In this document: positions 1 through 55,587 of the stretch, one piece after another
Layout: the number at the start of each line of letters is the position of its first letter
How positions within the stretch are numbered: the first letter of the stretch is position 1
NCBI GenBank assembly: GCA_951406725.2
Contig: OX597819.1
Location: forward strand, 4,402,001-4,466,000
Length of the DNA stretch: 64,000 nucleotides
Direction of reading: 5' to 3'
Origin: Octopus vulgaris
Lineage: Eukaryota
Program-made: the position numbers and the translations under genes
The notes under the pieces: model-generated
Seen by the model: only the letters and a program-made list of their open reading frames with translations
Database searches by the model: none
What the model was told of the DNA's origin: nothing

Positions 1-50
1 CATATATATGTGTTTGTGTGTATGTGTATGTATATATATATATAGTAAAG

Positions 51-593
<543 letters not shown>

Positions 594-639
594 CAAGTCA
601 AAAATAGAAAATGCTAAGATAATTTTATAGTGAATCTTT

Positions 640-677
640 CAGTACCGGTTTCGGTCATTTTGAGACCTTTTCAACTG
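640..677 (-). ncRNA. Minimal type I hammerhead ribozyme, U3:A8 variant
   Basis: Minus strand: CAG-UUGAAAA-GGUC(ucaaaau)GACC-GAAA-CCGG-UA-CUG. Helix I, helix II and a palindromic helix III are all formable. Confidence 0.75.
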
Positions 678-1004
678 TAACGATTAAATAATTAAATTTA
701 GAAAAATTAGAAGAAAAGTTTTTTTAAAAGAATATTTCTGTAGTAGTGTTCAGATATAAGTAGCATTCTGCCTTTCTCTGACTCCCTTGTTTGCACTTGT
801 GTGTTCGAGGTCGTTTTGAGTTCTTGGTAGGATAGGTGAAGAATAAGGAGGCTGATGTGGAGAGGGGGTGGGGAAATCTGGGAATGCCTTAATGGTCGTA
901 TTTTGAATGGTCAGTGGCTGACAGTAGTCGCAGTTCAATTCAGGAATTGTTTATGGAATTTGCGTAGGCGTTATACTGAAAGACATTAGTGACAAGGTTA
1001 AGGG

Positions 1005-1230
1005 GTGGAAGGTGGAGAAGTAGAAGAAGAAGAAGAAGATGACGATGTTGATGATGATGATGATGATGAAGAAGAAGAAGAAGAAGAAGAAGAAGAAGAA
1101 GAAGAAGAAGGAGAAGGAGAAGATGGTGGTGATGATGGTGGTGATGATGATGACGACGATGATGATGATAATGATGATGATGAAGAAGAAGAGGAAGAAG
1201 AAGAAGAAAAAAACAGAGAAGGGAGAATAT
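1005..1230. repeat. (GAA)n/(GAT)n trinucleotide low-complexity tract in the PLE 3' region
   Basis: Visible repeats. The poly-E/D and poly-K ORFs here are by-products. Confidence 0.9.
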
Positions 1231-1334
1231 GAATGGGTGAAAGTATAGCTGTGATGGGGCTGATTAGTAATGGATTCTATGGAGTGTAATATTTGTGTGT
1301 GTATATATTTCTTTTATTCTAAAGTTGAGGTATA

Positions 1335-3650
1335 TTAATTGTTTGTCGTAGACCCGTTAAGAAGTGGCTTGTATTTTGTAATAAAGAGATTTTCTTTACT
1401 TATTCGTTGTCTCGAGGTTGTATCGTCCCTAAATTGGTAGAGGGGGAAAATCCTGAAGTTTGGTGTTTTTTTGTTGGCGCAAGTATCTATGTGTTGGCTA
1501 AAAGCTATTTTTCTGTTTTGGGGAATTTTTATCTGGGATCTGTGCAGGGCCATTCGTTTACGCAAACCATTTTTTGTTTGGCCTATGTACTGCTCTTGAC
1601 ACCCGGAGCAGGTTAGTGAGTATATTAGGTTCTCCGAAGCACATGTGAAGTTGCTTTTCACTGTAAACCGTTGTCCCTGTTTGAAGGAGAACTCTGATCC
1701 CTCAATTAGATAGTCGCATATCCCGCAATTGGGTCTTCCACATTTTTTTACTGTCGGCTTCTGTGTTGAAGAGTGAATTCGGGCTTGTGTTAGGAGACTT
1801 TTCATGGATCTAGGCTGTCTTTTGCTTTTTATGATCGTGTGTGTTTGGAGGATTGTGTTCATTCTGTGGTCTTTTTTTAGGAGGGGTATGTTGTGGAGGA
1901 TGGTGTCGAAGGCTTCGTTATTGAGAGGGTTGTGTGTGGAGATGTATGGTAAGGCTTTTGGTTGTAAGTTTTTCTTTGATTTGGGATGTCTCAGTTCCTT
2001 GATGTTAAGTTGAAGGGCACGTTGAATGCACTTGTCAATAAGTGAAGGTGGATAGTTCCTGGTGATAAGGGTATCTTTTAGTTCTTGTAGTCGTGTGTCT
2101 CTGGTGTTTGCGTTAGAGACTATAGTGCATATCCTTTTTGCTAGATTGAAGGGGATATTCATCCTGGTGTGTCTGGGGTGGCATGAATTGAATGGAAGAT
2201 ATTGCTTAGAGTCTGTAGGCTTATAGTATATGTCTGTTTCTATCATATTATTAGCTTTCTTAATGAGGATATCGAGGAAGGGGAGTTGTTGCTGGCTATA
2301 TTCCATCGTGAATTGGATGTTTACGTCCAGTCCGTTTAAAATTTCCTGGAATTCTATGAGTTTTTCTATATTTTTATGCCAAAGGATGAAACAGTCATCT
2401 AGATATCTCTTCCAGTTGTTTTCTATGTAGATGGAGAAAGGGCTGCCATATCTTTCTAGAACCTTACGATACAGACTGATCTCTAGGTATCCTATGACTA
2501 GGTTGGCAAAGGAGGGGGCCATTCGTGTACCCATCGCAGTCCCCGATTTTTGTCGGTAGAAGTTGTCATTGAAGGCGAAGAAGCTATTTTCCAGGATGAA
2601 TTTAACCCCTTCTATCACAAATTCTTTTTTGATGCGGTGTGGTAGTTCGTTGGCGTGATTCTCTAGCCAGAATTGGATTGCCTCTAGTCCTAGGTTGTGG
2701 GGGATATTGGAGTAGAGGTTGACTACATCGAAGGATACCAGTATGGTGTTTTTGTTTATAGTATTCGGTAGGTGATTGAGCATATCTAAGTCGTCCCTTA
2801 TATAGCTTTTGACATGTTTGAGGAGTGGTTTTAACAGGGTGTCTAAAAAGTTACTGAGGCGGTGGGTTTCGCATGCGGGACCTGCTATTATGGGTCTCAA
2901 TTTGAGGTCATTAGGATTAGGGACTTTAATTATTTTGTCTGTAGCTATCTTGCATGCGTTGCTTATTTTTTCACTTTTGTGGATCTTAGGTATACCATAG
3001 AATTGGCTAGTTTTACTTGTGAAATTGGTCACATAATCATATTCTTTGTCGGTGAGCCCTGCTTTGTATGGGTTTAATATGGATTTTAGTTCCCTCATTA
3101 TTTTTTGTTGACTGTAGTTTTGTGCCATTTCATAGTATGTTGTGTCTTCCAGCATAGAAAGTACCAAAGTTATGTAAAATGTCGTATCCATTAAGACAAC
3201 AGCACTCCCTTTATCGGCCTCTTTGATTGTTATTGTTTTATCTTGTTTTAATTTGTTCAACTCAGCCCATTCTTTTTTGCTGAAGTTTGGTTTGTGTTTT
3301 TGTTTGTGCATATGTTGATATGGGTAATTAGATATGTGGTCACAGAAATCATCAAGTGTTTTGTTCTTACCTTTCGAGGGGGTGTAGTTACTCCTATTTC
3401 TGGCTAACGATTCGTCCTCGTTGTATTTATCGTATAGCTCCTCAGTAAGTCTTAATTTTCTGCAGAATTCTGCGATGTCTTCTTTCATTTCGTTGTAGTT
3501 GGGGTGTTGTGGGGTGGGTGTAAACTTGAGTCCTTTGGAAAGTATGTTTATTTGGTTTGCTGTTAGTTCCTTGTGAGTTAGATTGATAATTTTTATTACT
3601 TTTGGTTCCTCCTGCTTGTTTGGTGCTATCTTGTGTCTCTGTGTTGCGTA
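1335..3650 (-). CDS. PLE reverse transcriptase + GIY-YIG endonuclease, uninterrupted, N-terminus truncated
   Basis: Motifs: LSKGLKFTP, IKEADKGSAVV, YGIPKIHK, LRPII, SFDVVNLYSNI, GTAMGT, RYLDD, LPFLD, CGRPNCGIC linker and NLIYSLTC..C..QYIGQT (GIY-YIG). The first ~30 aa of the 801-aa ORF-track entry come from SINE/TA sequence. Confidence 0.95.
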   Translation of the reverse strand, partial: YATQRHKIAPNKQEEPKVIKIINLTHKELTANQINILSKGLKFTPTPQHPNYNEMKEDIAEFCRKLRLTEELYDKYNEDESLARNRSNYTPSKGKNKTLDDFCDHISNYPYQHMHKQKHKPNFSKKEWAELNKLKQDKTITIKEADKGSAVVLMDTTFYITLVLSMLEDTTYYEMAQNYSQQKIMRELKSILNPYKAGLTDKEYDYVTNFTSKTSQFYGIPKIHKSEKISNACKIATDKIIKVPNPNDLKLRPIIAGPACETHRLSNFLDTLLKPLLKHVKSYIRDDLDMLNHLPNTINKNTILVSFDVVNLYSNIPHNLGLEAIQFWLENHANELPHRIKKEFVIEGVKFILENSFFAFNDNFYRQKSGTAMGTRMAPSFANLVIGYLEISLYRKVLERYGSPFSIYIENNWKRYLDDCFILWHKNIEKLIEFQEILNGLDVNIQFTMEYSQQQLPFLDILIKKANNMIETDIYYKPTDSKQYLPFNSCHPRHTRMNIPFNLAKRICTIVSNANTRDTRLQELKDTLITRNYPPSLIDKCIQRALQLNIKELRHPKSKKNLQPKALPYISTHNPLNNEAFDTILHNIPLLKKDHRMNTILQTHTIIKSKRQPRSMKSLLTQARIHSSTQKPTVKKCGRPNCGICDYLIEGSEFSFKQGQRFTVKSNFTCASENLIYSLTCSGCQEQYIGQTKNGLRKRMALHRSQIKIPQNRKIAFSQHIDTCANKKTPNFRIFPLYQFRDDTTSRQRISKENLFITKYKPLLNGSTTNN

Positions 3651-3663
3651 TATATATATATAT

Positions 3664-4062
3664 GACGGCTGTGTGGTAAGTAGCTTGCTAACAAACCACA
3701 TGGTTCCGGGTTCAGTCCCACTGCGTGGCATCTTGGGCAAGTGTCATCTGCTATAGCCCCGGGCCGACTAATGCCTTGTGAGTGGATTTGGTAGACGGAA
3801 ACTGAAAGAAGCCTGTCGTATATATCTATATATATATATGTGTGTATGTGTTTGTGTGTCTGTGTTTGTCCCCCTAGCATTGCTTGACAACCGATGCTGG
3901 TGTGTTTACGTCCCCGTCACTTAGCGGTTCGGCAAAAGAGACCGATAGAATAAGTACTGGGCTTACAAAGAATAAGTCCCGGGGTCGATTTGCTCGACTA
4001 AAGGTGGTGCTCCAGCATGGCCACAGTCAAATGACTGAAAAAGTAAAAGAGAGAAAAAAGAG
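3664..4062 (+). mobile_element. tRNA-derived SINE, family B (bipartite, with internal TA/TG linker)
   Basis: Head GGCTGTGTGGTAAG...GGTTCAGTCCC. Homologous copies lie at 17268, 21726, 22442, 28408 and 53597. Confidence 0.9.
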
Positions 4063-5506: not shown

Positions 5507-6943
<1,437 letters not shown>

Positions 6944-11158: not shown

Positions 11159-11206
<48 letters not shown>

Positions 11207-11208
<2 letters not shown>

Positions 11209-11540
11209 GTACAGACCCCCTTCGGTCATGAATGACCATGGGATTGCACCTAGAAAGTTACCCTCCTAGACACAAGTCCGGGTAAGGTTGTTTATGGAAG
11301 ACCAGCAGTCGCCCATGCATACCAGCCTCCCCTCTCCACGCCACCAGTGTTATCCAAGGGAAAGACAAAGGTCGATACAGCTTGGCACCAGCGACGTCGC
11401 AACTCATTTCTACAGCTGAGTGAATTGGAGCAACGTGAAATAAAGTGCCTTGCTCAGGAACACAACACGCAGCCCGGTCCGGGATTCGAGCTCACAGCCT
11501 CACGATCGTAAGCTCGACGCTCTAACCACTGAGCCATGCG

Positions 11541-11544
<4 letters not shown>
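11207..11544 (-). mobile_element. SINE family A
   Basis: Near-identical to 51-386. Confidence 0.9.
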
Positions 11545-13786: not shown

Positions 13787-15044
13787 CTTGTTTTATTTAT
13801 ATTCCTGACCGCCATACTAATACAATTGTTTGTTTGTACTCCACCTGCCTTCGTCTTTTGTTTATTTTCATAAAGCTTCCCGTTATATATATATATATAT
13901 ATCACTATGTATGGCAAGGGGATAAAGCAACATTCACAAACTCATGACGATAATTAGAAACGACTTAATGACTGTTTAGCACTTTTTAAATGTCACACTA
14001 TTGCTGTTTACAATCATTTAGCGAAATGTTCACCCTAGGTCACCACTGTTTATAAACATAAATCTCACGTTTTTGTTATGCTTTTCAGACCACAGAAGTC
14101 GTCCTACTTTTTTTTTTTAAATGATTATTGTTTGATATCTCATCAAAAAATAAGAGTCGTCAGAAATATTTTTACTTTAAATTGGCCCTTGTCACAACAG
14201 AATTACGTTTGGGGTTGCTACATCTCCTACTTGAGCTATATTAAATGAAGTAGCAGTTGAGCACTTTTTATGGCTTAATACGTATAAAGAGTTTGTATGA
14301 AAGTTACCCCCTTCCCTGTGCTCTATACACAATCTGTTGACAATTGTTCGCAATGTTCCAGCATTATTTCATATCTTCCAGTCGAAATGAATGTTAACTT
14401 ATTTAATTTAAATCACTTAATATTCTCAGTTTCCTATCTTTATGGTTTGAAAATTTTTTTTACAACTTTTCCGCTCTACTTTTCTCAGAACATAGATAAT
14501 TATTACCATGCTTGCCTTTAGTATGGTTTCATTCAATTTTATTTCAGAGAGCCTTTTCTATTATTTTCTTTTCGCCCAACTATAAAATTTGGAAGTGCTT
14601 ATTTTTATACAGCATTCTCACGATTACATACTTTCTTTGGGTTATTTCAGAAAAGAAAATCAATTAGAGCCCCACCCAACTAAAATTCATCCCATTCTTT
14701 TGACATAACACCGTTAAGGTTTCTCCAAACACGATATCAGCAATTCTTAGAACAGCAATTGTATCATTTTTTATCTGGTGAAAAAAAATACTTATTTTCC
14801 CCCCCTCCAAAGCACTGATAACATAAACGCTTACAAATAAAAATTCAGTTGGAAATTCTCACTGAAGTAATGTTTGTCTCCTGACCCATAAAACGTACAG
14901 AAACGTTTACACATACGTACATACATGCATACATACATACATACATACATACATACATACATACATACATACATACATACATACATACATACAAATACAT
15001 ACGTCTATGTGTATACACACACACGCGCACACACACATATGGAT

Positions 15045-15138
<94 letters not shown>

Positions 15139-15147
15139 GTATATATA

Positions 15148-17265
15148 CCTCCCGAAAACAGTTAACGAGGAGTCGCTCCTGGTATCTTTTGATGTCATCA
15201 ACCTCTACACCAACATCCCACATGAATATGGTATAGAGGCAATTGACTTCTGGCTAGAAAAACACCCAGAGACATTCCCTGACCGCATTAACAAGACTTT
15301 TATTACAGAATCTCTCAAGTTCATTCTGACCAACAATTTTTTTCTCTTCGACGACACACACTACCGTCAAAAATGTGGTATTGCGATGGGTACCAAGGCT
15401 GCACCAGTCCTTGCGAACCTCATAATGGGTTTCTTCGAACTATCACTCTATGAAATATCACGCCAGAAATTTGGACATGTTTTCCGCACCTACCTAAAGG
15501 AAAACTGGAAAAGGTATTTGGATGATTGTTTCATCATATGGAAAGAACCTTATGAAAAACTCCTGGAATTCAAAACCATACTAAACATCATACATCCCAA
15601 CATCCAATTCACTATGGAATTAAGCAAACATCATCTACCATTCCTTGATCTCCTAATTATAAAAACACCTAAGAACCAAATCATAACAGACATCTACCAC
15701 AAACCCACAGACTCACAACAATACCTCCTCTTTAGTTCATGCCACCCAAACACACCAAGACAAATATCCCTTTCAATTTGGCTAAAAGGGTATGCACCAT
15801 TGTCTCGGATCCAAAAACACGAGAAATACGCCTTCAAGACCTCAAAAAAACACTATTACAACGCCAATATCCCTCCACCCTTATAGAGTATGGAATAAAA
15901 CGCGCCAAAGAACTAGATAACATTACACTGAAAACTACCCAACCTAACACCACACACAACCTCAAAATACTTCCATACATTTCCTCCCACAACCCCAAAA
16001 ATATCGAAGCATGCACCACAATCATACAAAACCTCAGTCTACTGTCAACAGACCCCAAAATGAAAAACATTATAAATACACACAAAATCCTCAAATGTAA
16101 AAGGCAACACAATCCTTTAAAAAAACTCTTGACAAATGCCAAACTTCACACACCACATCCACCCCCAGCAGTAAAAAAATGTGCACGCCCAAACTGTGGG
16201 ACATGCCCCCTCCTACTTGAAGGTTCTGAATTTACCTTCAAACAAGGTACGAAGTTTAAAATCAAGACTAACTTCTCCTGTTCCTCCGAGAACCTTATCT
16301 ACGTTCTCACATGCGCTGGTTGCCAACATAATTATGTTGGACAAACGAGTCTCCCGTTACGTAAACGAGTAGCGGTGCATAAAGAACAAATAAATCTCCC
16401 GGAATACCGACAAATTCCACTGAGTGACCACAAAGACTCATGCGCTAAAGACTTAAACCTCAAATTCTATATATTCCCCTTCTACCAATGTAAAGACGGC
16501 ATCACCACACAGGAGAGAATTAACAAGGAGAATCTCTTTATTGAAAAATTCCAAACACAACTTAATATACAAACTCCTCGTTGATCAAACTTCCCTTTTC
16601 TACCTCATTCTTCATGGATGGACTCACATAAATATATAAGGATACCATAGATTCATCACTTCAAGCAAAAACTTATATTCTTTAAATATCAATTTTACTA
16701 TTGTTGTTATTACCATCATCTTTATTATTTATGATATAACAATCTGAAATGCAATTGTCTATGCAAATTTATATAATTATAAAATAATATAAATAAAGTG
16801 TTAAAATCTGAAAGTTAAATTAACAAACAATTACATAAAAAAGATAATGCAAATGAAGCTAAAATGACAATTTTATAATTTGGGGTTTTATCAGCAGCCT
16901 TTATTGAAGAACTCAAAAGAGTTGTCTCCCCTTATTCACAACACAGGAATTGAAGAACCACAATTACTACTACTTCCTGTTTTGCCAACATCCTAAATTA
17001 AACCAAACAACACATGGCCTTAATCCCATTGGATCCTAATACCTCAAGGTAATTTTTTCGTGAACAATCATTAAACTCAAGATACACAACGAACTCACAA
17101 TGTATCGGAATACTTATTTTTTAATTTTTATACATATTTATTATTATTATTCTTTTGCAAAAAACAATGCAACTTTTTTTCCTCTTTCACATTTTTAAAA
17201 AACCTTTTCACCTAACTATTCTTGATAAGTCAAACTATGACGAAAACCGGTTTGAATAAATATAT
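15148..17265 (+). mobile_element. Neptune-like PLE, 5'-truncated, frameshift near 15745, with pLTR
   Basis: SFDVINLYTNI, GIAMGT, RYLDD; then CARPNCGTC and NLIYVLTCAGCQHNYVGQT. Stop at 16584; hammerhead at 17217. Confidence 0.92.
17217..17258 (+). ncRNA. Minimal type I hammerhead ribozyme, U3:A8 variant
   Basis: UAUUC-UUGAUAA-GUCA(aacua)UGAC-GAAA-ACCGGU-UU-GAAUA. Confidence 0.8.
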
Positions 17266-23361: not shown

Positions 23362-23657
23362 TATATATATATATATGCTTTCGGTGCGAATTTGTATACG
23401 GCGCCGTTTTTACAATCTTGTAAATAATAATAACGGTATTTTTATATAAGCTTAAAGCCCTCGACAGAAAAATGAGGACTTTCCTATACGCGTCTGTGTT
23501 ACCTTTATACCAGCGAATCAGACTCTCTTTTCCTGTCAAATTTATATATATAGATATTTATTTTAATACTTCTTGTATATTTAAATATAACGGTAATTAT
23601 TTATCAATTGTTTCTCCTTACACATTAACTAGACTTATTTTAGATGTCACAAGCGCC

Positions 23658-23746
<89 letters not shown>

Positions 23747-23748
<2 letters not shown>

Positions 23749-26433
23749 TATCTACTATAAACCGACAGACTCTAAACAGTACCTACCCTTTGATTCATGC
23801 CACCCACGACACACTAGAATGAATGTCCCTTTTTGTTTAGCTAGAAGGATTTGCACCATAATATCAGACACAAACATCCGACACACACGTCTCCAGGAAC
23901 TTAGAACCACACTTACAAATAGAAACTATCCACAGCCCCTAATAGACAGTGCAATCCAACGGGTACTTAAATTAAGTATAGAAGACCTGAGACAAACAAA
24001 ACCAAAAAAGAAAGAACAATTAAAAACCCTTCCCTACATCTCTACACACAACCCACTCAACAATGAGGCCTTCACCACCATACTACAAAGCACAGCCCTA
24101 CTAAAGGGAGACCCAAAGATGAACCGGATCCTCGAAACACACACCATCATTAAAAGTAAACGGCAACCAAAATCCTTGAAAAGGATTTTAACCCAAGCTA
24201 CACTGCACTCAACATCAACCACAAAACCAGCAGTTAGAAAATGTGGAAGGCCCAACTGCGGAATCTGTGTCATCTTGAAAGAAGGATCAGAATTTATACT
24301 GGAACAAGGCCACCAGTTCACCATTAGAACAAACTTCACCTGCGCATCAGAAAACTTAATTTACGTCATAACATGCGCAGGCTGCAATAGGCAGTATATA
24401 GGCCATACAAAAAATAGCTTACGTAACAGGATGGCGGTGCATAAATCACAAATTAGAAACCCTGATTACCGCAAAATACCGGTCAGCGGACACATAGATA
24501 GATGTGCTGGAAATGTAAATCCGAAATTTACAACTAACCCGCTCTATAAATTCAGTGACAACGCAACCTTCACACAACGCCAAAATAAAGAACTATATTT
24601 CATAAAAAAATTTAGACCAAGTTTTAACACCCTGGGCCAGGAATACTTAAACAAAAGATAAGTCCTCCGAAAAGGAGAAGCAAAATTCCACCACGGCCGC
24701 TACTTCAAACAGACACTCACTCTGACGGAAATATGCCTTAGTAAAAAAGGAAAAAAATTATTTCGTGCAAATCTGACCCTGATACATACGATACAGCTAA
24801 GGGTCATACCCGATTCTGATTGGTCAACAAGTTGATGACGTCTAGCTCTGCTAGAATGGACAGGATACAAACAGGGGACAGTCATTAGTCAGAATATTGA
24901 TGACGTCCTTTTCTGCTTGAATAGTCACCTAACAAGTACAGACAGGGGGCAGATCTAATGTAGCTATAAGTCGTGATTGGGCAGAATCTGGATGACGTCC
25001 CGTTCTGCTTGACTAACGAAGCGACTGGTCAAAACAGGAAACAAACAAGAGGCAGATATAATGCAGCGATTGGTCAAAATAATGATGACGTCCCGTTCTA
25101 CTTGACTAACGAAGCGACTGGTCAAAACAGGAAACAAACAAGAGGCAGTTATAATGCAGCGATTGGTCAAAATAATGATGACGTCCCGTTCTACTTGATT
25201 AAAGCCACCTAACGAAACGATTGGTCAAAACATTGATGACGTCACGCTACGCTAGATTGACCACCTAACAGGCATTATAAAACCGAGCATTTCACAAAAA
25301 CTCACTAGAACCACCCAGCAAACTTCCACCATGGGTCACCACAATTGCTTAAGGTAAAAATGAATTCCTCGCTCTTTCGGAAACATCAATCTTCTGTATT
25401 GACCGCTTTCCACCACTTTGATCTGTTTTTTGTATTGAATACGTATCGCCACCGTGGGCCACTGCATCGAACACTTTGAACATATACTTCAAACTATATA
25501 TCAACTATACATGAACTATATATCAACTATATGCTTGTATATGTACATGTAGAGGTAGGTACGTACATATATGTTTATATATATGCATATATTTTATTAA
25601 CATATTATACGACTAAACGCACGCACCCTATTAAGTAAGATTGTTCTGTTTATCAAGTTCGCCTTGATATTAACTCTCACGCGACTCTGCATCTTTCTTT
25701 CTTTCTCTCCCATTCCCTTTTTCGTCTTTTTTCCCTCACTTAACTTGTCTCTTCCTCTCTCTCTCTCCCCCTCACTGTTCTTCATGGTCTCCTCGCACCA
25801 TTCCCCTTCTTCTCTCTCTTCCTCTTGCTCCTCCTCCCCCATTCCCGTCGTCCATCTGCGACGTACTTCCGTCGTAACTGCTATCCCGTCCTTTCTCGCC
25901 TGCCTTCTAAGGCCACTGGTCGACATCTTCCTCTCTCGTCGTCCACTATAATCCAGCGTTTGCAATACTTTTTTCGTCTGGCGTTAACAGCCCTTCTTAT
26001 CTTGTTCTCCTTGTCCTGTCTCTCACTGTTATATATTTATTTTTCCACTGTTTATATATATATTTTTTACTGTTTATATGTTTGTACTGTCGTTACCGTA
26101 TTGCTTTTTTTACCCCTCTGCGACAAGATCTCAGAATTTTAATTGATTTGCTTTTCGCAGGAAGGAATTTTTCATTCGAAGTATACGTCTCGCTTTTATC
26201 CTTCGAAACGTTTAGTAGATGAAACTTTAGCGACTGAAGAAGGGGATTTTTCGTTGTGCTTATTGTCCTGTATCTCCTTTTTTTGCCTGTCTTGTTCCTT
26301 GGTTTGTGTCTATGTTTTTCGTCTCTCTATGTGTTCGACGTCCTTTTGGTGTCCTGTACACATATATGCTTGTATATGTACATGTAGAGGTAGGTACGTA
26401 CATATATGTTTATATATATGCATATATTTTATT

Positions 26434-26440
<7 letters not shown>
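23747..26440 (+). mobile_element. Neptune-like PLE 3' part (RT thumb + GIY-YIG, stop at 24661) followed by pLTR sequences
   Basis: DIYYKPTDSKQYLPFDSCHP, CGRPNCGIC, NLIYVITCAGCNRQYIGHT. A ~70-bp tail is directly repeated at about 25530-25603 and 26365-26440. Confidence 0.88.
24817..25282 (+). promoter_or_regulatory. Putative PLE pLTR promoter: repeated ATTGG (inverted CCAAT) + TGACGTC modules, then a TATA-like box
   Basis: Six GATTGGTCAA-N6/7-GATGACGTC-like modules, three of them at a 93-bp period (24991, 25084, 25177). TTATAAAA near 25275. Confidence 0.55.
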
Positions 26441-26475
<35 letters not shown>

Positions 26476-26785
26476 AGGGCGCGTGGGTTAGTGGTTAGGG
26501 CATTCGGCTCATGATCGTAAGGTTGTGAGTTCGATTCCCGGCGACGCGTTGTGTCCTTGAGCAAGACACTTTATTTCACGTTGCTCCAGTCCACTCAGCT
26601 GGCAAAAATGAGTAGTTTCTGTATTTCAAAAGAGCTAGCCTTGTCACACTCTGTGTCACGCTGAATCTTCTTGCGAACTACGTTAAGGGTACACGTGTCT
26701 GTGGAGTGCTCAGCCACTTGCGCGTTAATTTCACGAGCAGGTTGTTCCGTCGTGGGATCCTCGTCGTCGTAACCGACGGAGTGTT
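26476..26785 (+). mobile_element. tRNA-derived SINE, family D (family A-like head and central domain + tail X)
   Basis: Head GGGCGCGTGGGTTAGTGGTTAGG...GTTCGATTCCC. The tail is shared with 54141-54330 and 63749-63857. Confidence 0.85.
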
Positions 26786-26787
26786 CA

Positions 26788-26850
<63 letters not shown>

Positions 26851-26993
26851 GTATGTATGTAGGTAGGTAGGTTGGTAGGTACTGTAAGTTTAGAAGGAAT
26901 ACTTGATAAGTGTAAGCACCTGTATATGCCAGATCGTGGCAGAGGTGAGAGAATATATCAAACATAAATTGAAAACAGAACATAAAGGATATT

Positions 26994-27095
26994 GCAGTAC
27001 ACGTGACGTGTTTCTAGCTTTATAAACAATCAGTTATTACATCAGCATAGGTATACTATTGATATAAAAGATGGTTTAAAGCTCTCTTCAGCCGC
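26994..27095 (-). ncRNA. Type I hammerhead, long helix II, 5-nt duplication in helix III
   Basis: GCGG-CUGAAGA-GAGCUUUA...UAAAGCUA-GAAA-CACGUCACGUG-UA-CUGC. Confidence 0.65.
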
Positions 27096-27281
27096 AAACA
27101 TTGTTAGTACAAAGATTACATCACTCTATGCTGAATAGTGGTACAGTATGGGCAGATTTTCGAAATCCAACGAATCTTTATACAAATATACCTTTTCAAA
27201 GAGATGTGATAAACCTATTATAATGGGTAACACTACGTGTAATTTTTATTCTGTGATGCAATCTTTGGATTAACAATGTTT

Positions 27282-27378
27282 GCGGCTGAAGAGAGCTTTA
27301 AACCATCTTTTGTATCAATAATATACCTATGCTGATGTAATAACGGATTGTCTTTAAGGCTTGAAACATGTGTACCGC
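27282..27378 (+). ncRNA. Type I hammerhead, canonical core, long helix II
   Basis: GCGG-CUGAAGA-GAGCUUUA...UAAGGCUU-GAAA-CAUGUG-UA-CCGC. Confidence 0.8.
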
Positions 27379-27432
27379 GATATTCGTTGTGTTCTGTTTT
27401 CAATTTATGTTTGATATATATATATATATATT

Positions 27433-27768
27433 TAAAGACCCCCTTCGGTCATGAATGACCATGGGATTTCACCTAGAATGTTACCCTCCTAGACACAAGT
27501 CCGGGCAAGGTTGTTTATGGAAGGCCAGCAGTCGCCCATGCATACCAGCCTCCCCTCTCCACGCCACCAGTGTTATCCAGGGGAAAAACAAAAGTCGATA
27601 CAGCTTGGCACCTGTGACGTCGCAACTCATTTCTACAGCTGAGTGAACTGGAGCAACGTGAAATAAAGTGCCTTGCTCAAGAACACAACACGCAGCCCGG
27701 TCCGGGATTCGAGCTCACAGCCTCACGATCGTAAGCTCGACGCTCTAACCACTGAGCCATGCACCTTC
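27433..27768 (-). mobile_element. SINE family A
   Basis: Near-identical to 51-386. Confidence 0.9.
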
Positions 27769-27769
27769 A

Positions 27770-27899
<130 letters not shown>

Positions 27900-28083: not shown

Positions 28084-28181
28084 CCCTCTGAAGAGATTTT
28101 ACCTAGTATAATGATTTTAATAATTGCTATTTAATAATTGCTATTTAATTATTTCCGGTTTAATTGAAACAGCTGTAAGGG
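28084..28181 (+). ncRNA. Type I hammerhead, canonical core, long AU-rich helix II
   Basis: CCCU-CUGAAGA-GAUUUUACC...GGUUUAAUU-GAAA-CAGCUG-UA-AGGG. Palindromic helix III. Confidence 0.75.
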
Positions 28182-28407
28182 ACTATGTTTGACTTTTGCA
28201 GATAATAATTTTTTTTATTAAAGGCTACATCTCCATTTTCTTATTTTCTTTTGAATGATTATAAACCATGGCTTATATATAAACTTATTATTTTTAAGAA
28301 TATTATTATTCAAAAGTATTTGGTACTGAACCAGTAATTTATTGGGTGATACCATCCCTTAATATATTTGCTGTATTTCGGGAAGATCGAATCTCGATTG
28401 ATACTCT

Positions 28408-28719: not shown

Positions 28720-31120
28720 AATATTTCATCAAAGATAGGGGGAAAAGAGAACATATATGGAGAACTAATGAGCAACCTGCAGCTCTTATATCCAAGCTAT
28801 AGATTTTCCATGGTTAGGGTTATGGAGTTCTCTGCTAAATTCTCTTTGAGTCTCCTATCCCACCATGCCATAAATAGGTTAGCTACATCGCCAGCGATAA
28901 TGACACCGATGGCTGCAGCTTCCTTTTGTATATCTTGTTATTGAACTTAAATATGTGGCCCTTGAGTGTGATCTTGGCACTCACATCCGCCGCATGTGCG
29001 ACCATCTTTTTAAGCTGATCATCGTTTTTCGGGGTTCGTATAACTCTGGTCCATCCGTTCCATCTCTCTACAGGAGTCTTCTTATCCATAGAAATTATAG
29101 TAGGGGTGTCTGCCTCTTACCAATCTAGTGGGGTAGAAACAACTAAATTTATGTTAATCTAAGAAACCATTGTCACATGTTAGTCTTAAGAGGAGGCCCA
29201 GTTCTTCTGTGTGAAGACCACGAAACTCCACATCGCTCTCACTGATCACCTCTACACATTTCTTCACAGCAAAATTAACATCAATGGATGGATATGAGGA
29301 TACTACGTCTATATTTCCTAATATGCATCCCGTCAGGTCATAAGCATGGTTGCAATCATTGATTCTGCTGAGATCCTTTGTGCTGTCACACACATCCGGG
29401 GACATTTTGATCCGGGGACATTATGATCATAGAGAGGAAGCATGAGATCTGGTAGCTGTTGGCAACATTGGCTCCGCAGACCGGTCTCGCTGGTGGTCCT
29501 GTTACTGGGTCAGTAGTTGCCTTATGGTCCTTGAGGAGCCTTTACAGTGCCTTAGGAAAATCTACAAGAACGCAGCCATTGCAACAATACCAAGTTCAAT
29601 ATTCTTATAGCAGACTTGGTAAGAGTGATGAGGAAAGTGTCGCGCATGTGCGATGCAGCACTTCATCCATCGCATGCAGTTTTCTGGCTACAATGAAAGG
29701 GACAGGACTAGAGCGTACAAATGAGCCAGGGTTAAGTACAAAGCCATCATAGAGAGTGATGTTAAGGGGATCTGTCCGCTATACAGGAGTAAATCTTGGA
29801 ACAGCACAGAAAAGACCAGAAAAAAAGATAGATAAGGCTACTCATGGTATGACAACAAATAATACCGGAGTGTCATGTTCGTTGATGCTACCCCTGGCAA
29901 CGAACTAGCATCCCTTTTTAGAAAAACATCGGTTAAGGCCAATCTATGGATTAAAGTAGTAGAAAGGCCTGATGTCCCTATAAAATCCCTGATCTCTAGA
30001 ACCTATGCCTTAGATAGGCTCCCGTGTACAGAGAACAATTGCACTATATGTAGGATGAACCGACATGTTAACTGTAAGGTTAGAAATATAGTGTAGAGCT
30101 TACGATGTACTAAAGGGCGGTGTAGAAACATGACAACTACCTACATTCAAGAGACAGCACGCAGCATAGGAGAGCGTATAAGTGAACACTGGAGAGAGTT
30201 CAAGGAAGAGAAAGGCTCGTCAGTGCTCTACTAACATGCTCAAGCAAAACATAGAGGCTCAGTCAATAGCATAGAGCTTAAAGTATTATCAATGCATGGA
30301 AGTGACACGACACTTAGACAGATCACAGAGGCTAAATACATAGCAACAAATAGGCCGAGCCCCAACAGAGAACACGAATGGAAGAGTAACAACCACCACA
30401 ACAACACACAACATGACGACTAAAGAATGGAGAGAGAAAAAAAACGGATACAAACAGCTTAATACGCATACAATAGATATATATGCACATACCTATGATA
30501 AATACAAAAAAAATTGGAGACATAAAAAGACTGTATACAGGGCAGGGAGGCAAACAGAGGAAGCGAACCCATATACACACACGAACATACGTACGGTAAC
30601 TTCACAAACGGCCGCAACAATATCAACAACATGACTAACAACAATTACAACAACAACAGTTACCACGATGGCAGCAGTGTGGGCGAACACACAAACACAG
30701 TGAGTTACAAGAATGGTACAAAAAGTCGGGTTCAAGGGTAGCAGCAGCGCAACGGGGTAGGTGACGGGGTTGAGCAGGAGGTCATAGTGTTACTAAGAAC
30801 AATCACACAAACACATTTATACACACACACAAACACAGACACGTACGCATATAGGGATAAACATCATGGAAGAACAGAATGGAATAAGCAAAGCAAAAGT
30901 ACACACGAAGACGGAAAGTTTTGCTGAGATGTCAAAGATGTGCGACGAAAGATTTCCGGACAATGGATAGGAGTTAGAATAAGAACAGTAATAAACGAGT
31001 TAAGAACGAGTATATAGTGCGTGTGTTTATTTGGTAAAAAAAATACCCTCCCCAAATACAGCAATATTTGCTTCAACGCGATTTCACACCAGCAATCTTG
31101 CAACACAAATTCATAAACGT
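28720..31120 (+). mobile_element. Degraded PLE of a second clade (Naiad-like) with an inverted 5' segment
   Basis: Minus ~28800-29560: KDHK..GPPARPVCGA, IDVVSSYPSID, AAIGVIIAGDVANLFMAWWD. Plus 29570-30390: TKFNILIADLVRVMR, VMFVDATPGNELA, C..NCTIC, YIQETARSIGERISEH. Many stops. Clade assignment is from motif recall. Confidence 0.8.
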
Positions 31121-51145: not shown

Positions 51146-51447
51146 GAAGGCGCATGGGTCAGAGGTTAGAGCGTCAAGCTTACGATCGTGAGGTTGTGAG
51201 CTCGAATCCCGGACCGGGCTGCGTGTTGTGTTCTTGAGCAAGACACTTTATTTCACGTTCCTCCAGCTCACTCAGCTGTATCGGCCCCTTTGCCTTTCCC
51301 TTGGATACACTGTTGGCATGGAGAGGCGAGGCCGGTATGCATGGGCGACTGCTGGTCTTCCATAAACAACCTTGCCCGGACTTATGCCTGGGAGGGTAAC
51401 TTTCTAGGTGCAATCCCACGGTCTGTGTCGTGACTGAAGGGGGTCTC
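51146..51447 (+). mobile_element. SINE family A, older copy with deletion
   Basis: Homology to 51-386. Confidence 0.85.
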
Positions 51448-54922: not shown

Positions 54923-54958
<36 letters not shown>

Positions 54959-55066
54959 TCGGGGTGAGTACTTGATAATTATAAGCACCTGTGTATACCG
55001 CTTGGTGGTGTAGGTGGTGGAGTAAATTGATCAAAATAAAAATAAAAACATGAGGCGAAGGACTCA

Positions 55067-55144
55067 GCGGTACATATGTTTCGGGCCTTTATTAGACAGA
55101 TTTATAACAAAGCATAATGTATGTCTGTGGCCTTCTTCAGCCGC
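55067..55144 (-). ncRNA. Type I hammerhead (left-arm copy)
   Basis: Reverse complement of 55405-55482. Confidence 0.8.
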
Positions 55145-55404
55145 GCACAACAGCTTCCACAAGGACATGTGTTACATCAAAAATTCTTGGTTGGGGATGC
55201 AAATCCTCTCGTTCACGTACGACATAATGCGGCAGCAGCATAGAATTGAAGCGTCCATCTCTTTCTTCTCTCAATGTAGAAAGAAGAAAGAGATGGACGC
55301 TTCAATTCTATGCTGCTGCGCATTATGTCGTACGTGAACGAGAGGATTTGCATCCCCAACCAAGAATTTTTGATGTAACACATGTCCTGTGGAAGCTGTT
55401 GTGC

Positions 55405-55482
55405 GCGGCTGAAGAAGGCCACAGACATACATTATGCTTTGTTATAAATCTGTCTAATAAAGGCCCGAAACATATGTACCGC
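55405..55482 (+). ncRNA. Type I hammerhead, canonical core (right-arm copy)
   Basis: GCGG-CUGAAGA-AGGCC...GGCCC-GAAA-CAUAUG-UA-CCGC. Palindromic helix III. Confidence 0.82.
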
Positions 55483-55500
55483 TGAGTCCTTCGCCTCATG

Positions 55501-55587
<87 letters not shown>

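What the first reader, a model, noticed from the sequence alone, without database searches (positions are those of the whole stretch)
26900..27420. Second, older double-hammerhead fold-back element with the same architecture and the same upstream leader
Seen: diverged inverted arms of ~170 bp and a total length of ~467 bp, almost the same as the 55042 palindrome. Its hammerheads have the same GCGG/CCGC helix I, CUGAAGA core, long helix II and GUA site. Both elements are preceded by a related leader: TACTTGATAAGTGTAAGCACCTGTATATGCC (26900) versus TACTTGATAATTATAAGCACCTGTGTATACC (54969). Inference: leader + fold-back + (TA)n recurring in two divergent copies points to a defined integration mechanism or element family rather than chance rearrangement.
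Basis: partly seen in the sequence, partly recalled or inferred. Interest (0 to 1): 0.75.

Follow-up and report, generated by a model that had tools for sequence, protein, structure and literature searches.

The report
Decayed fold-back Penelope retroelement insertion
This hairpin-shaped repeat with a hammerhead ribozyme motif on each arm is real and is likely an ordinary, decayed leftover of a Penelope-type jumping gene, whose lopsided ends likely mark two places where its copying enzyme started.

Summary
26885-27413 consists of two outward-facing copies of one sequence, each with a type I hammerhead. The arms match at 145/166 columns, against 223/225 in the 55042 element, and both arms carry private changes, so this copy is older. 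The 31-nt leader matches the other element at 27/31 (0 of 1000 shuffles reach its score) and is the antisense continuation downstream of the ribozyme, on one side only, ending at (TA)n. This is the published Penelope-like-element layout: truncated copy, inverted truncated copy, one-sided tail. It is not one fixed family: the two bodies do not align, and joints in other genomes fall at varied places. Each arm holds sequence the other lacks, which argues for two priming events rather than simple fold-back (inferred). The parent was not found; a 9-residue hint points to the Penelope/Poseidon clade. Unusual details: the tail is 74-90 nt rather than 30-40, and is predicted to fold alike in two unalignable families. 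The scan noted the same layout before in shark-type DNA.

The parts
26787..26884 (.). Left flank: (TA)n degraded to (TATG)n/(TAGG)n; likely the insertion target
   Evidence: sequence
26885..26958 (-). Tail ('leader'): 74-nt one-sided continuation downstream of the hammerhead; outer end about 113 nt after the predicted cut; predicted stem-loop on the minus strand
   Evidence: (contig pieces start 26882-26889; loose ends before 26897 run into (TA)n), 40, 58, 61
26900..26930 (-). Best conserved block of the tail, 27/31 identical to 54969-54999
26959..27124 (-). Inverted 5'-truncated copy (left arm, 166 nt)
26994..27095 (-). Type I hammerhead motif of the left arm; 5-nt duplication in helix III; C-to-T in helix I
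   Evidence: (table 4)
27121..27124 (.). Junction: 3-4 nt (TCAC) shared by both copies, likely microhomology
   Evidence: left arm aligns to 27124; plus-copy contigs start at 27121-27122
27121..27413 (+). Direct 5'-truncated copy (293 nt): likely last codons of the ORF, 3' untranslated part (the apparent spacer 27125-27252), hammerhead, short end 39 nt after the predicted cut
   Evidence: (contigs run 27129-27273, 27181-27295, 27217-27409)
27121..27138 (+). Reads S-L-Y-A-E-stop; inferred end of the RT-endonuclease ORF
   Evidence: (loose end before 27121)
27282..27378 (+). Type I hammerhead motif of the right arm; 10-bp helix II with about 50-nt loop; near-palindromic helix III; predicted cut after 27374
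27414..27430 (.). Right flank (TA)n; its first ATATAT also matches the element's own continuation at 26953-26958
54954..55043 (-). Tail of the second element: 90 nt, outer end 117 nt after the predicted cut, abutting (TA)n
55044..55505 (.). Second, young fold-back element of a different family: arms 223/225 identical, hammerheads at 55067-55144 (-) and 55405-55482 (+), short end 27 nt after the cut, then (TA)n

Best explanation
26885-27413 is a pair of back-to-back, outward-facing hammerhead-bearing copies with a one-sided extension, and is likely a dead, doubly 5'-truncated insertion of a Penelope-like retrotransposon (about 0.9). Likely mechanism (about 0.6): the element's GIY-YIG endonuclease cut both strands in a (TA)n tract, and each free end primed reverse transcription on element RNA. 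One started about 113 nt downstream of the ribozyme cut (tail end, left side), the other about 39 nt downstream (short end, right side). Both copies stopped early, after 240 and 293 nt, and were joined at their truncated ends through 3-4 shared bases. The two arms then decayed neutrally. Shown: layout, ribozyme motifs, shared tail, fixed outer end, varied joints, arm decay. Inferred: the parent element, cutting, priming, joining, and any self-cleavage. The 55042 element would be a recent product of the same process from a sister family that has kept a similar tail.
For: Type I hammerhead with (near-)palindromic helix III on both arms, as described for Penelope-like pLTRs, including pairs 100-700 bp apart on opposite strands (PMC4209133). 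Inverted truncated copy plus one-sided tail is the published layout (PMC8557442; PMC3846280; Penelope-13_HM in (TA)n with hammerheads on both strands). Fetched locus L089 has an RT-endonuclease ORF with a 208-bp inverted 3' end carrying the hammerhead at both ends; L006 ends about 31 nt after its hammerhead in (TA)n while its 5' copy runs on. In contigs of 4 laid runs: the leader's outer end is fixed and abuts (TA)n (32 and 25 contigs in X1, X2); contigs bridge leader into left arm; the spacer is continuous with the right arm; other copies run on upstream of 27121. That upstream piece reads as 9 residues which score above all but 42 of 80,422 window 9-mers against Penelope/Poseidon-type ORF ends. 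Each arm holds sequence the other lacks (74-nt tail; 128-nt spacer), so neither is a plain copy of the other. A purified Poseidon protein cuts and extends both strands, starts at two internal sites that bound the tail, and is predicted to be a dimer (PMC11167929). Of 16 arm mismatches, 7 are private to the right arm, 6 to the left, 1 differs on both and 2 were not in the shown rows.
Against: No autonomous parent was found: no leader match in 98 fetched loci or 120 related proteins, in metagenome or viral contigs or in the PMC8557442 supplement beyond two 11-letter matches inside unrelated ORFs. The RT-endonuclease copies in the window show no alignment with either element and are of the zinc-finger-linker type, not the type the 9-residue hint suggests. 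That hint comes from a loose-end consensus of 4 contigs in one run, with frame and register picked by me. The tail (74-90 nt) is two to three times the published 30-40 bp. No laid contig spans the whole locus. Joints rest on one contig each at 80% likeness. No target duplication can be measured inside (TA)n. The second element fits self-priming fold-back equally well.
Confidence: 0.75

Rival explanations
1. Same origin, but the inversion arises by self-priming: one cDNA (or an antisense template) folds back at a short palindrome and copies itself, as proposed for rotifer Penelopes.
For: Proposed in PMC3846280 from palindromes at inverted junctions. The 55042 element has a near-perfect hairpin centre with a loop of about 6-12 nt and arms without substitutions, which fits this.
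Against: At 26885-27413 the tail-bearing arm is the shorter one upstream and the tail-less arm holds the 128-nt spacer. A one-template fold-back cannot give each arm sequence the other lacks without an extra template switch or trimming.
Confidence: 0.15
2. A discrete non-autonomous family: a fixed leader plus fold-back unit of about 470 bp that is transcribed and re-inserted as a whole by Penelope enzymes.
For: Two elements of near-equal fold-back length in 64 kb with the same order of parts. Non-autonomous derivatives of Penelope-like elements exist.
Against: Bodies unalignable; arm/spacer split differs; joints in other genomes at 26905>27127, 26934>27123, 26952>27364, 26956>27378, 26987>27387 and 27129/27162, none reproducing this junction among the 12 rows shown.
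Confidence: 0.07
3. A MITE or fold-back DNA transposon with long terminal inverted repeats, moved by a mariner-type transposase into TA.
For: Long inverted arms, TA flanks, and a mariner-type ORF at 5967-6878.
Against: Termini are asymmetric (74-90-nt one-sided tail), arms carry paired hammerhead motifs, and the plus copy runs on upstream in other copies.
Confidence: 0.02
4. Assembly or long-read fold-back artefact.
For: No laid run spans the whole locus, and the best run holds 0.29 of its sampled words.
Against: Arms differ at 16 substitutions and a 5-nt gap, with private changes on both arms; flanks differ; the parts and similar joints occur in contigs of runs from 4 studies.
Confidence: 0.01

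Closest known systems
Complex insertions of endonuclease-positive Penelope-like elements (pLTR, adjacent inverted 5'-truncated copy, one-sided tail; PMC8557442 Fig. 2 legend, PMC3846280)
   Same: Head-to-head truncated copies with 3' ends outward, hammerhead in each, extension on one side only, short overlap at the junction, AT-rich target.
   Different: Both copies are cut so short that almost no ORF is left; tail 74-90 nt instead of 30-40 bp; parent not identified.
Dual minimal hammerheads on opposite strands, 100-700 bp apart, from truncated Penelope-like elements (PMC4209133)
   Same: Type I motif, short helix I, palindromic helix III, two motifs on opposite strands about 190-260 nt apart.
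   Different: Helix II carries a 40-50-nt loop; the motifs tabulated for Chlamys and Hydra elements mostly have loops of 3-10 nt, and the 17 of 98 fetched loci with a detected motif have helix II regions of 10-20 nt.
Poseidon from Anolis carolinensis (PAc; PMC11167929)
   Same: Two defined ends downstream of the hammerhead, AT-rich target, an A/C-rich predicted stem-loop in the tail region.
   Different: In PAc the tail lies inside the ORF and the start sites are 85-92 nt after the cut (111-118 nt into the ORF, cut at 26); here the ends are 27-39 and 113-117 nt after the cut and no reading frame could be shown.
Hydra-clade elements such as Penelope-13_HM (PMC8557442 supplement)
   Same: (TA)n target, inverted truncated copy at the 5' end, hammerheads on both strands.
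   Different: No sequence link found; short helix II loops; clade-defining protein features cannot be read here.
Animal non-LTR retrozymes (bioRxiv 10.64898/2026.07.22.740005)
   Same: Short, non-coding, type I hammerheads, derived from Penelope-like pLTRs.
   Different: Retrozymes are head-to-tail tandem units; these are inverted pairs with a one-sided tail.

Membership tests
Endonuclease-positive Penelope-like elements | Type I hammerhead motif with short helix I and palindromic helix III in the terminal repeat | tested here: met
   Rfam models do not reach threshold
Endonuclease-positive Penelope-like elements | Inverted 5'-truncated copy directly adjacent to the 5' end of a direct copy | tested here: met
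Endonuclease-positive Penelope-like elements | Tail extension at one end only | tested here: met
   One-sided in both elements; length 74-90 nt, longer than the published 30-40 bp
Endonuclease-positive Penelope-like elements | Terminal repeat belongs to an element encoding RT and GIY-YIG endonuclease | tested here: inconclusive
   Only a 9-residue ORF-end hint; no parent found; no genome held
Endonuclease-positive Penelope-like elements | Insertion in AT-rich or microsatellite target, with or without target duplication | tested here: inconclusive
   (TA)n or its decayed form on both sides of both elements, but (TA)n is common in the window and a duplication cannot be measured in it
Endonuclease-positive Penelope-like elements | Ribozyme self-cleavage and RT priming at the two ends | not testable with these tools
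   needs in-vitro assay
Penelope/Poseidon clade | ORF end of the N-x-x-x-G-x-x-L-x-x-[IV]-[YW] kind (pattern drawn from fetched loci; clade label from my recall) | tested here: inconclusive
   Pattern in 14 of 20 loci ends with that layout and 1 of 120 zinc-finger-linker proteins; hint peptide outscored by 42 of 80,422 window 9-mers; one run, 4 contigs
Penelope/Poseidon clade | No zinc-finger-like linker between RT and endonuclease; RT phylogeny | not testable with these tools
   parent ORF not available
Neptune/Nematis clades (cysteine linker) | Sequence continuity with a linker-type RT-endonuclease copy | tested here: not met
   Window copies at 1335-3743, 14885-16584 and 23633-24661 show no alignment with either element; their 3' regions differ
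Non-LTR retrozymes | Head-to-tail tandem units each with a hammerhead | tested here: not met
   Motifs are on opposite strands
MITE / fold-back DNA transposon | Symmetric terminal inverted repeats and a fixed unit | tested here: not met
   One-sided tail; varied joints

The most novel reading that the evidence does not exclude
The tail here is a 75-90-nt cis-acting RNA stem-loop conserved across Penelope families whose bodies have diverged beyond alignment: a shared protein-binding and priming signal ending 113-117 nt after the ribozyme cut. The reciprocal overhangs of these mini fold-backs are then a genomic record of two priming events on opposite strands of one cut, by a dimeric enzyme using two start sites, countable over very many copies in one genome.
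Probability: 0.35. Interest if true: 0.5.

Novelty: new member of a known kind. Interest (0 to 1): 0.27.

Why it matters
As a locus it matters little: a likely dead retroelement scar of a published layout. Two uses remain. First, such short fold-backs in TA tracts are easily filed as MITEs or hairpin-RNA genes, so recognising them helps repeat annotation. Second, how Penelope-like elements make inverted copies and tails is still open (PMC8557442 calls for an in-vitro system; PMC11167929 supplies the first). A long, conserved, very widely shared tail with two fixed ends gives a ready natural data set for telling two-ended priming from self-priming.

Tried and rejected
Whole-genome search: no genome held. 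Rfam: 0 matches at gathering score; 12 weak matches up to E 10, none a hammerhead. Leader as protein N-terminus: the two copies share apparent peptides in two frames, but neither motif occurs in 120 related proteins, and the 98 loci gave only 3 scattered loose-pattern matches; a 36-residue query in one frame found 0 proteins among 1.84 billion representatives; the second frame was not sent to a database; no frame has a start codon in both copies. Coding is therefore unsupported, not excluded. A 45-codon open frame in the 55042 left arm found nothing (weak evidence by the tool's own note). Leader DNA pattern: 0 in metagenome contigs, 0 in viral contigs; genome contigs was used for the protein scan instead. 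Supplements of PMC8557442 and PMC13282606 gave no leader match of meaning. Neptune-type copies in the window as parent: no alignment. Solo hammerhead at 28084 as a third member: no significant match to arm or leader (246, 471, 154 of 1000 shuffles). Expression: no RNA holder listed; run X15 is only guessed to be RNA and was not used as evidence of transcription. Read depth was not taken as copy number. RNAalifold on the two tails gave a different, weak consensus fold with 1 of 10 pairs compensated, and the second tail's fold is not significant alone (14 of 200 shuffles), so the shared stem-loop is suggestive only. Earlier notes by place and by sequence: none.

Full report
Setting. The window is AT-rich DNA (GC 0.31-0.43), dense in (TA)n tracts and interspersed repeats. 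No whole genome is held and the host was not identified; an animal, likely a mollusc, is my inference from the nearest named proteins and from recall. Below, A is the element at 26885-27413 and B the one at 54954-55505.

Observation. A has inverted arms at 26953-27124 and 27253-27419 (172 nt, 88%). Trimmed of the shared ATATAT, 145 of 166 columns are identical, with 16 mismatches (11 transitions) and a 5-nt gap; B has 223 of 225, two 1-nt gaps and no substitution. A pairing script finds a type I hammerhead on each arm of both, all reading outward: A at +27282 and -27095, B at +55405 and -55144. The right motif of A has a 4-bp helix I, the CUGAAGA core, a 10-bp helix II with a loop of about 50 nt, a near-palindromic helix III and a GUA site. 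The left motif has one helix I change and a 5-nt duplication in helix III, which most laid relatives with a gap there lack (table 4). Rfam does not detect them. The leader matches at 27 of 31 letters, occurs only at these two places in the window, and scores 43 against a shuffle maximum of 24 (0 of 1000); blastn extends the match to 85 nt at 72%. A and B are thus different families that share a ribozyme type and a leader.

What the leader is. Read on the minus strand, the leader directly continues the left arm downstream of the hammerhead. I laid contigs of 4 of the 24 listed runs on 26875-27415 at 80% likeness (40 of 75 variant rows, 24 of 248 loose ends and 32 of 1887 pieces were shown). Contigs bridge leader into arm (26882-27005, 26903-27082, 26886-27030). 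Loose ends before 26897 (32 contigs in X1, 25 in X2) show about a dozen fixed letters like those of B at 54954-54968 and then (TA)n, so the outer end is defined; in A those letters are decayed (7 of 15 match B). Summed depth over the leader is 138,000-248,000 in X1 and X2, roughly ten times that of the helix II loops; this is no copy number, but with loose ends behind 26932 and 26958 that run into other sequences it shows the leader is shared by many related families. Measured from the predicted cut, the outer end lies at 113 nt in A and 117 in B, the short end at 39 and 27 (one search printed 37 for A through a start-coordinate slip; 39 follows from the letters). The tail is therefore 74 and 90 nt. 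Both tails are predicted to fold into the same three-helix stem-loop on the element's strand (A z -3.1, 0 of 200 shuffles; B z -1.6, 14 of 200), but the opposite strand folds as well and the two-sequence consensus fold differs, so this is a lead only. A coding role found no support.

The middle. The apparent spacer 27125-27252 is continuous with the right arm in contigs (27129-27273, 27181-27295, 27217-27409), and plus-strand pieces start at 27121-27122 with unaligned letters before them. The left arm aligns up to 27124, so the two copies overlap by 3-4 bases. The loose end before 27121 (4 contigs of X15, agreement 0.97; 11 similar letters at a joint in X1) reads YKLNPIYLT in the frame that the window continues as SLYAE-stop. 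That fits the ORF ends of one type of fetched element: the L-x-x-[IV]-[YW] pattern is in 14 of 20 such ends and in 1 of 120 cysteine-linker proteins, and only 42 of 80,422 window 9-mers score as well. I chose frame and register, and the Penelope/Poseidon label is from recall, so this is a hint. Joints in other genomes tie the leader to the plus copy at varied places (26905>27127, 26934>27123, 26952>27364, 26956>27378, 26987>27387, and an inversion 27129/27162), each in one contig with 22-35 letters on the short side. The near-equal length of A and B is therefore likely chance.

Age. Using letters that are the majority in at least one of the three DNA runs, 7 of the 16 arm mismatches are private to the right arm, 6 to the left, 1 differs on both and 2 were not among the shown rows. 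Even decay on both arms fits one insertion followed by neutral change and speaks against an artefact. No laid contig spans the locus, and no run holds more than 0.29 of its words, so the locus itself has no independent confirmation.

Relatives. The window holds RT-GIY-YIG copies at 1335-3743 (-), 14885-16584 and 23633-24661. The first ends in a variant hammerhead at 677 (-) and about 50 nt later in (TA)n, the same kind of short end, but none aligns with A or B. With this ORF I fetched 120 proteins (best 61%) and 98 loci. A hammerhead motif was detected in 17 of 98 loci. L089 has an ORF with a 208-bp inverted copy of its 3' end adjacent upstream, starting in the last codons and carrying the hammerhead; L006 ends about 31 nt after the motif in (TA)n while its 5' copy runs on. 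These show the layout in protein-coding elements but are not the parent.

Mechanism. Both outer ends are element 3' ends joined to target DNA. In A the left copy has 74 nt the right lacks and the right has 128 nt the left lacks, so neither can be a simple copy of the other. The most economical reading is two target-primed events, one on each strand of a cut in (TA)n, starting at two sites and joined by microhomology. PMC11167929 (parts 1-2 of 4 read) reports that a Poseidon protein cuts and extends both strands, prefers AT-rich DNA, starts at two internal sites that bound the genomic tail, and is predicted to dimerise. The rival is self-priming fold-back (PMC3846280, passages and Discussion read), which fits B but needs an extra step for A. 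Every step of cutting, priming and joining is inferred. Metazoan motifs of this type showed no cleavage as single copies in vitro (PMC4209133), and motifs on opposite strands cannot form the tandem dimer, so these copies are likely inert.

Known or new. The layout is in print: inverted 5'-truncated copy and a 30-40-bp tail at one end (PMC8557442; passages, outline, section 11, supplement searches and part 2 of 59); inverted pLTR with a 31-bp tail and a short overlap (PMC3846280); dual motifs 100-700 bp apart on opposite strands (PMC4209133, parts 1-2 of 4). Retrozymes are tandem, not inverted (bioRxiv 10.64898/2026.07.22.740005, part 1 of 5; its supplements are closed). PMC13282606 (passages and supplement search) adds only that Penelope-like elements are abundant in an octopus genome. 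My searches found no paper on a long conserved tail stem-loop or on twin priming in these elements; the library lacks most subscription papers and Repbase was not available. Two earlier scan notes report the same layout in shark-type DNA; they agree with my reading, which was formed before, and are not independent support.

Verdict. Real, older than B, made by a defined process, and most likely an ordinary Penelope-like insertion scar: a new member of a known kind. What is left of interest is the long shared tail and the reciprocal overhangs. Interest 0.27.

Noticed in passing
window 590-3743 (-): 5'-truncated RT-GIY-YIG element with a cysteine linker (about 770 open codons). Its hammerhead at 677 has the U3-A8 core swap described in PMC4209133 for Schistosoma, and it ends about 50 nt later in (TA)n.
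   Followed up: partly
window 28084-28183 (+): Solo type I hammerhead with a 71-nt helix II region and palindromic CAGCTG helix III; no inverted partner, no leader, not alignable to the finding.
   Followed up: partly
window 14885-16584 (+) and 23633-24661 (+): Two more truncated cysteine-linker Penelope-like copies, 65-71% identical to the first at DNA level; the second is followed by 93-nt tandem repeats at 24881-25232 and a lone CTGAAGA core at 26234.
   Followed up: no
window 25528-25609 and 26363-26445: An 83-nt direct repeat (99%) brackets about 750 nt that include the lone hammerhead core; possibly an unusually long target duplication.
   Followed up: no
window 29850-30420 (+): Decayed GIY-YIG endonuclease region of a different Penelope-like type.
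   Followed up: no
window 5967-6878 (+): Open 303-codon mariner-type transposase frame (Pfam Transposase_1, E 3e-25).
   Followed up: no
window 47-388, 11206-11543, 27433-27770, 51146-51446; 26475-26790: Several short interspersed repeat families, often abutting (TA)n; one 338-nt family has three copies 94-96% identical, one directly right of the finding. ARAGORN finds no tRNA gene.
   Followed up: no
window 55140-55274 (-): The left arm of the second element holds 45 open codons ending at the TGA of the hammerhead core; the two 1-nt gaps in the right arm shift this frame. No protein match found.
   Followed up: partly
L001, L002, L006-L009, L013 and other genome-contig hits: Contigs filed in bacterial MAGs encode Penelope-like RT-endonuclease elements, several with hammerheads; likely animal-host contamination.
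   Followed up: no
L001, L019-L022, L027: Cysteine-linker elements appear to carry a separate upstream reading frame ending in a T-rich overlap just before the RT frame, possibly a frameshift site.
   Followed up: no
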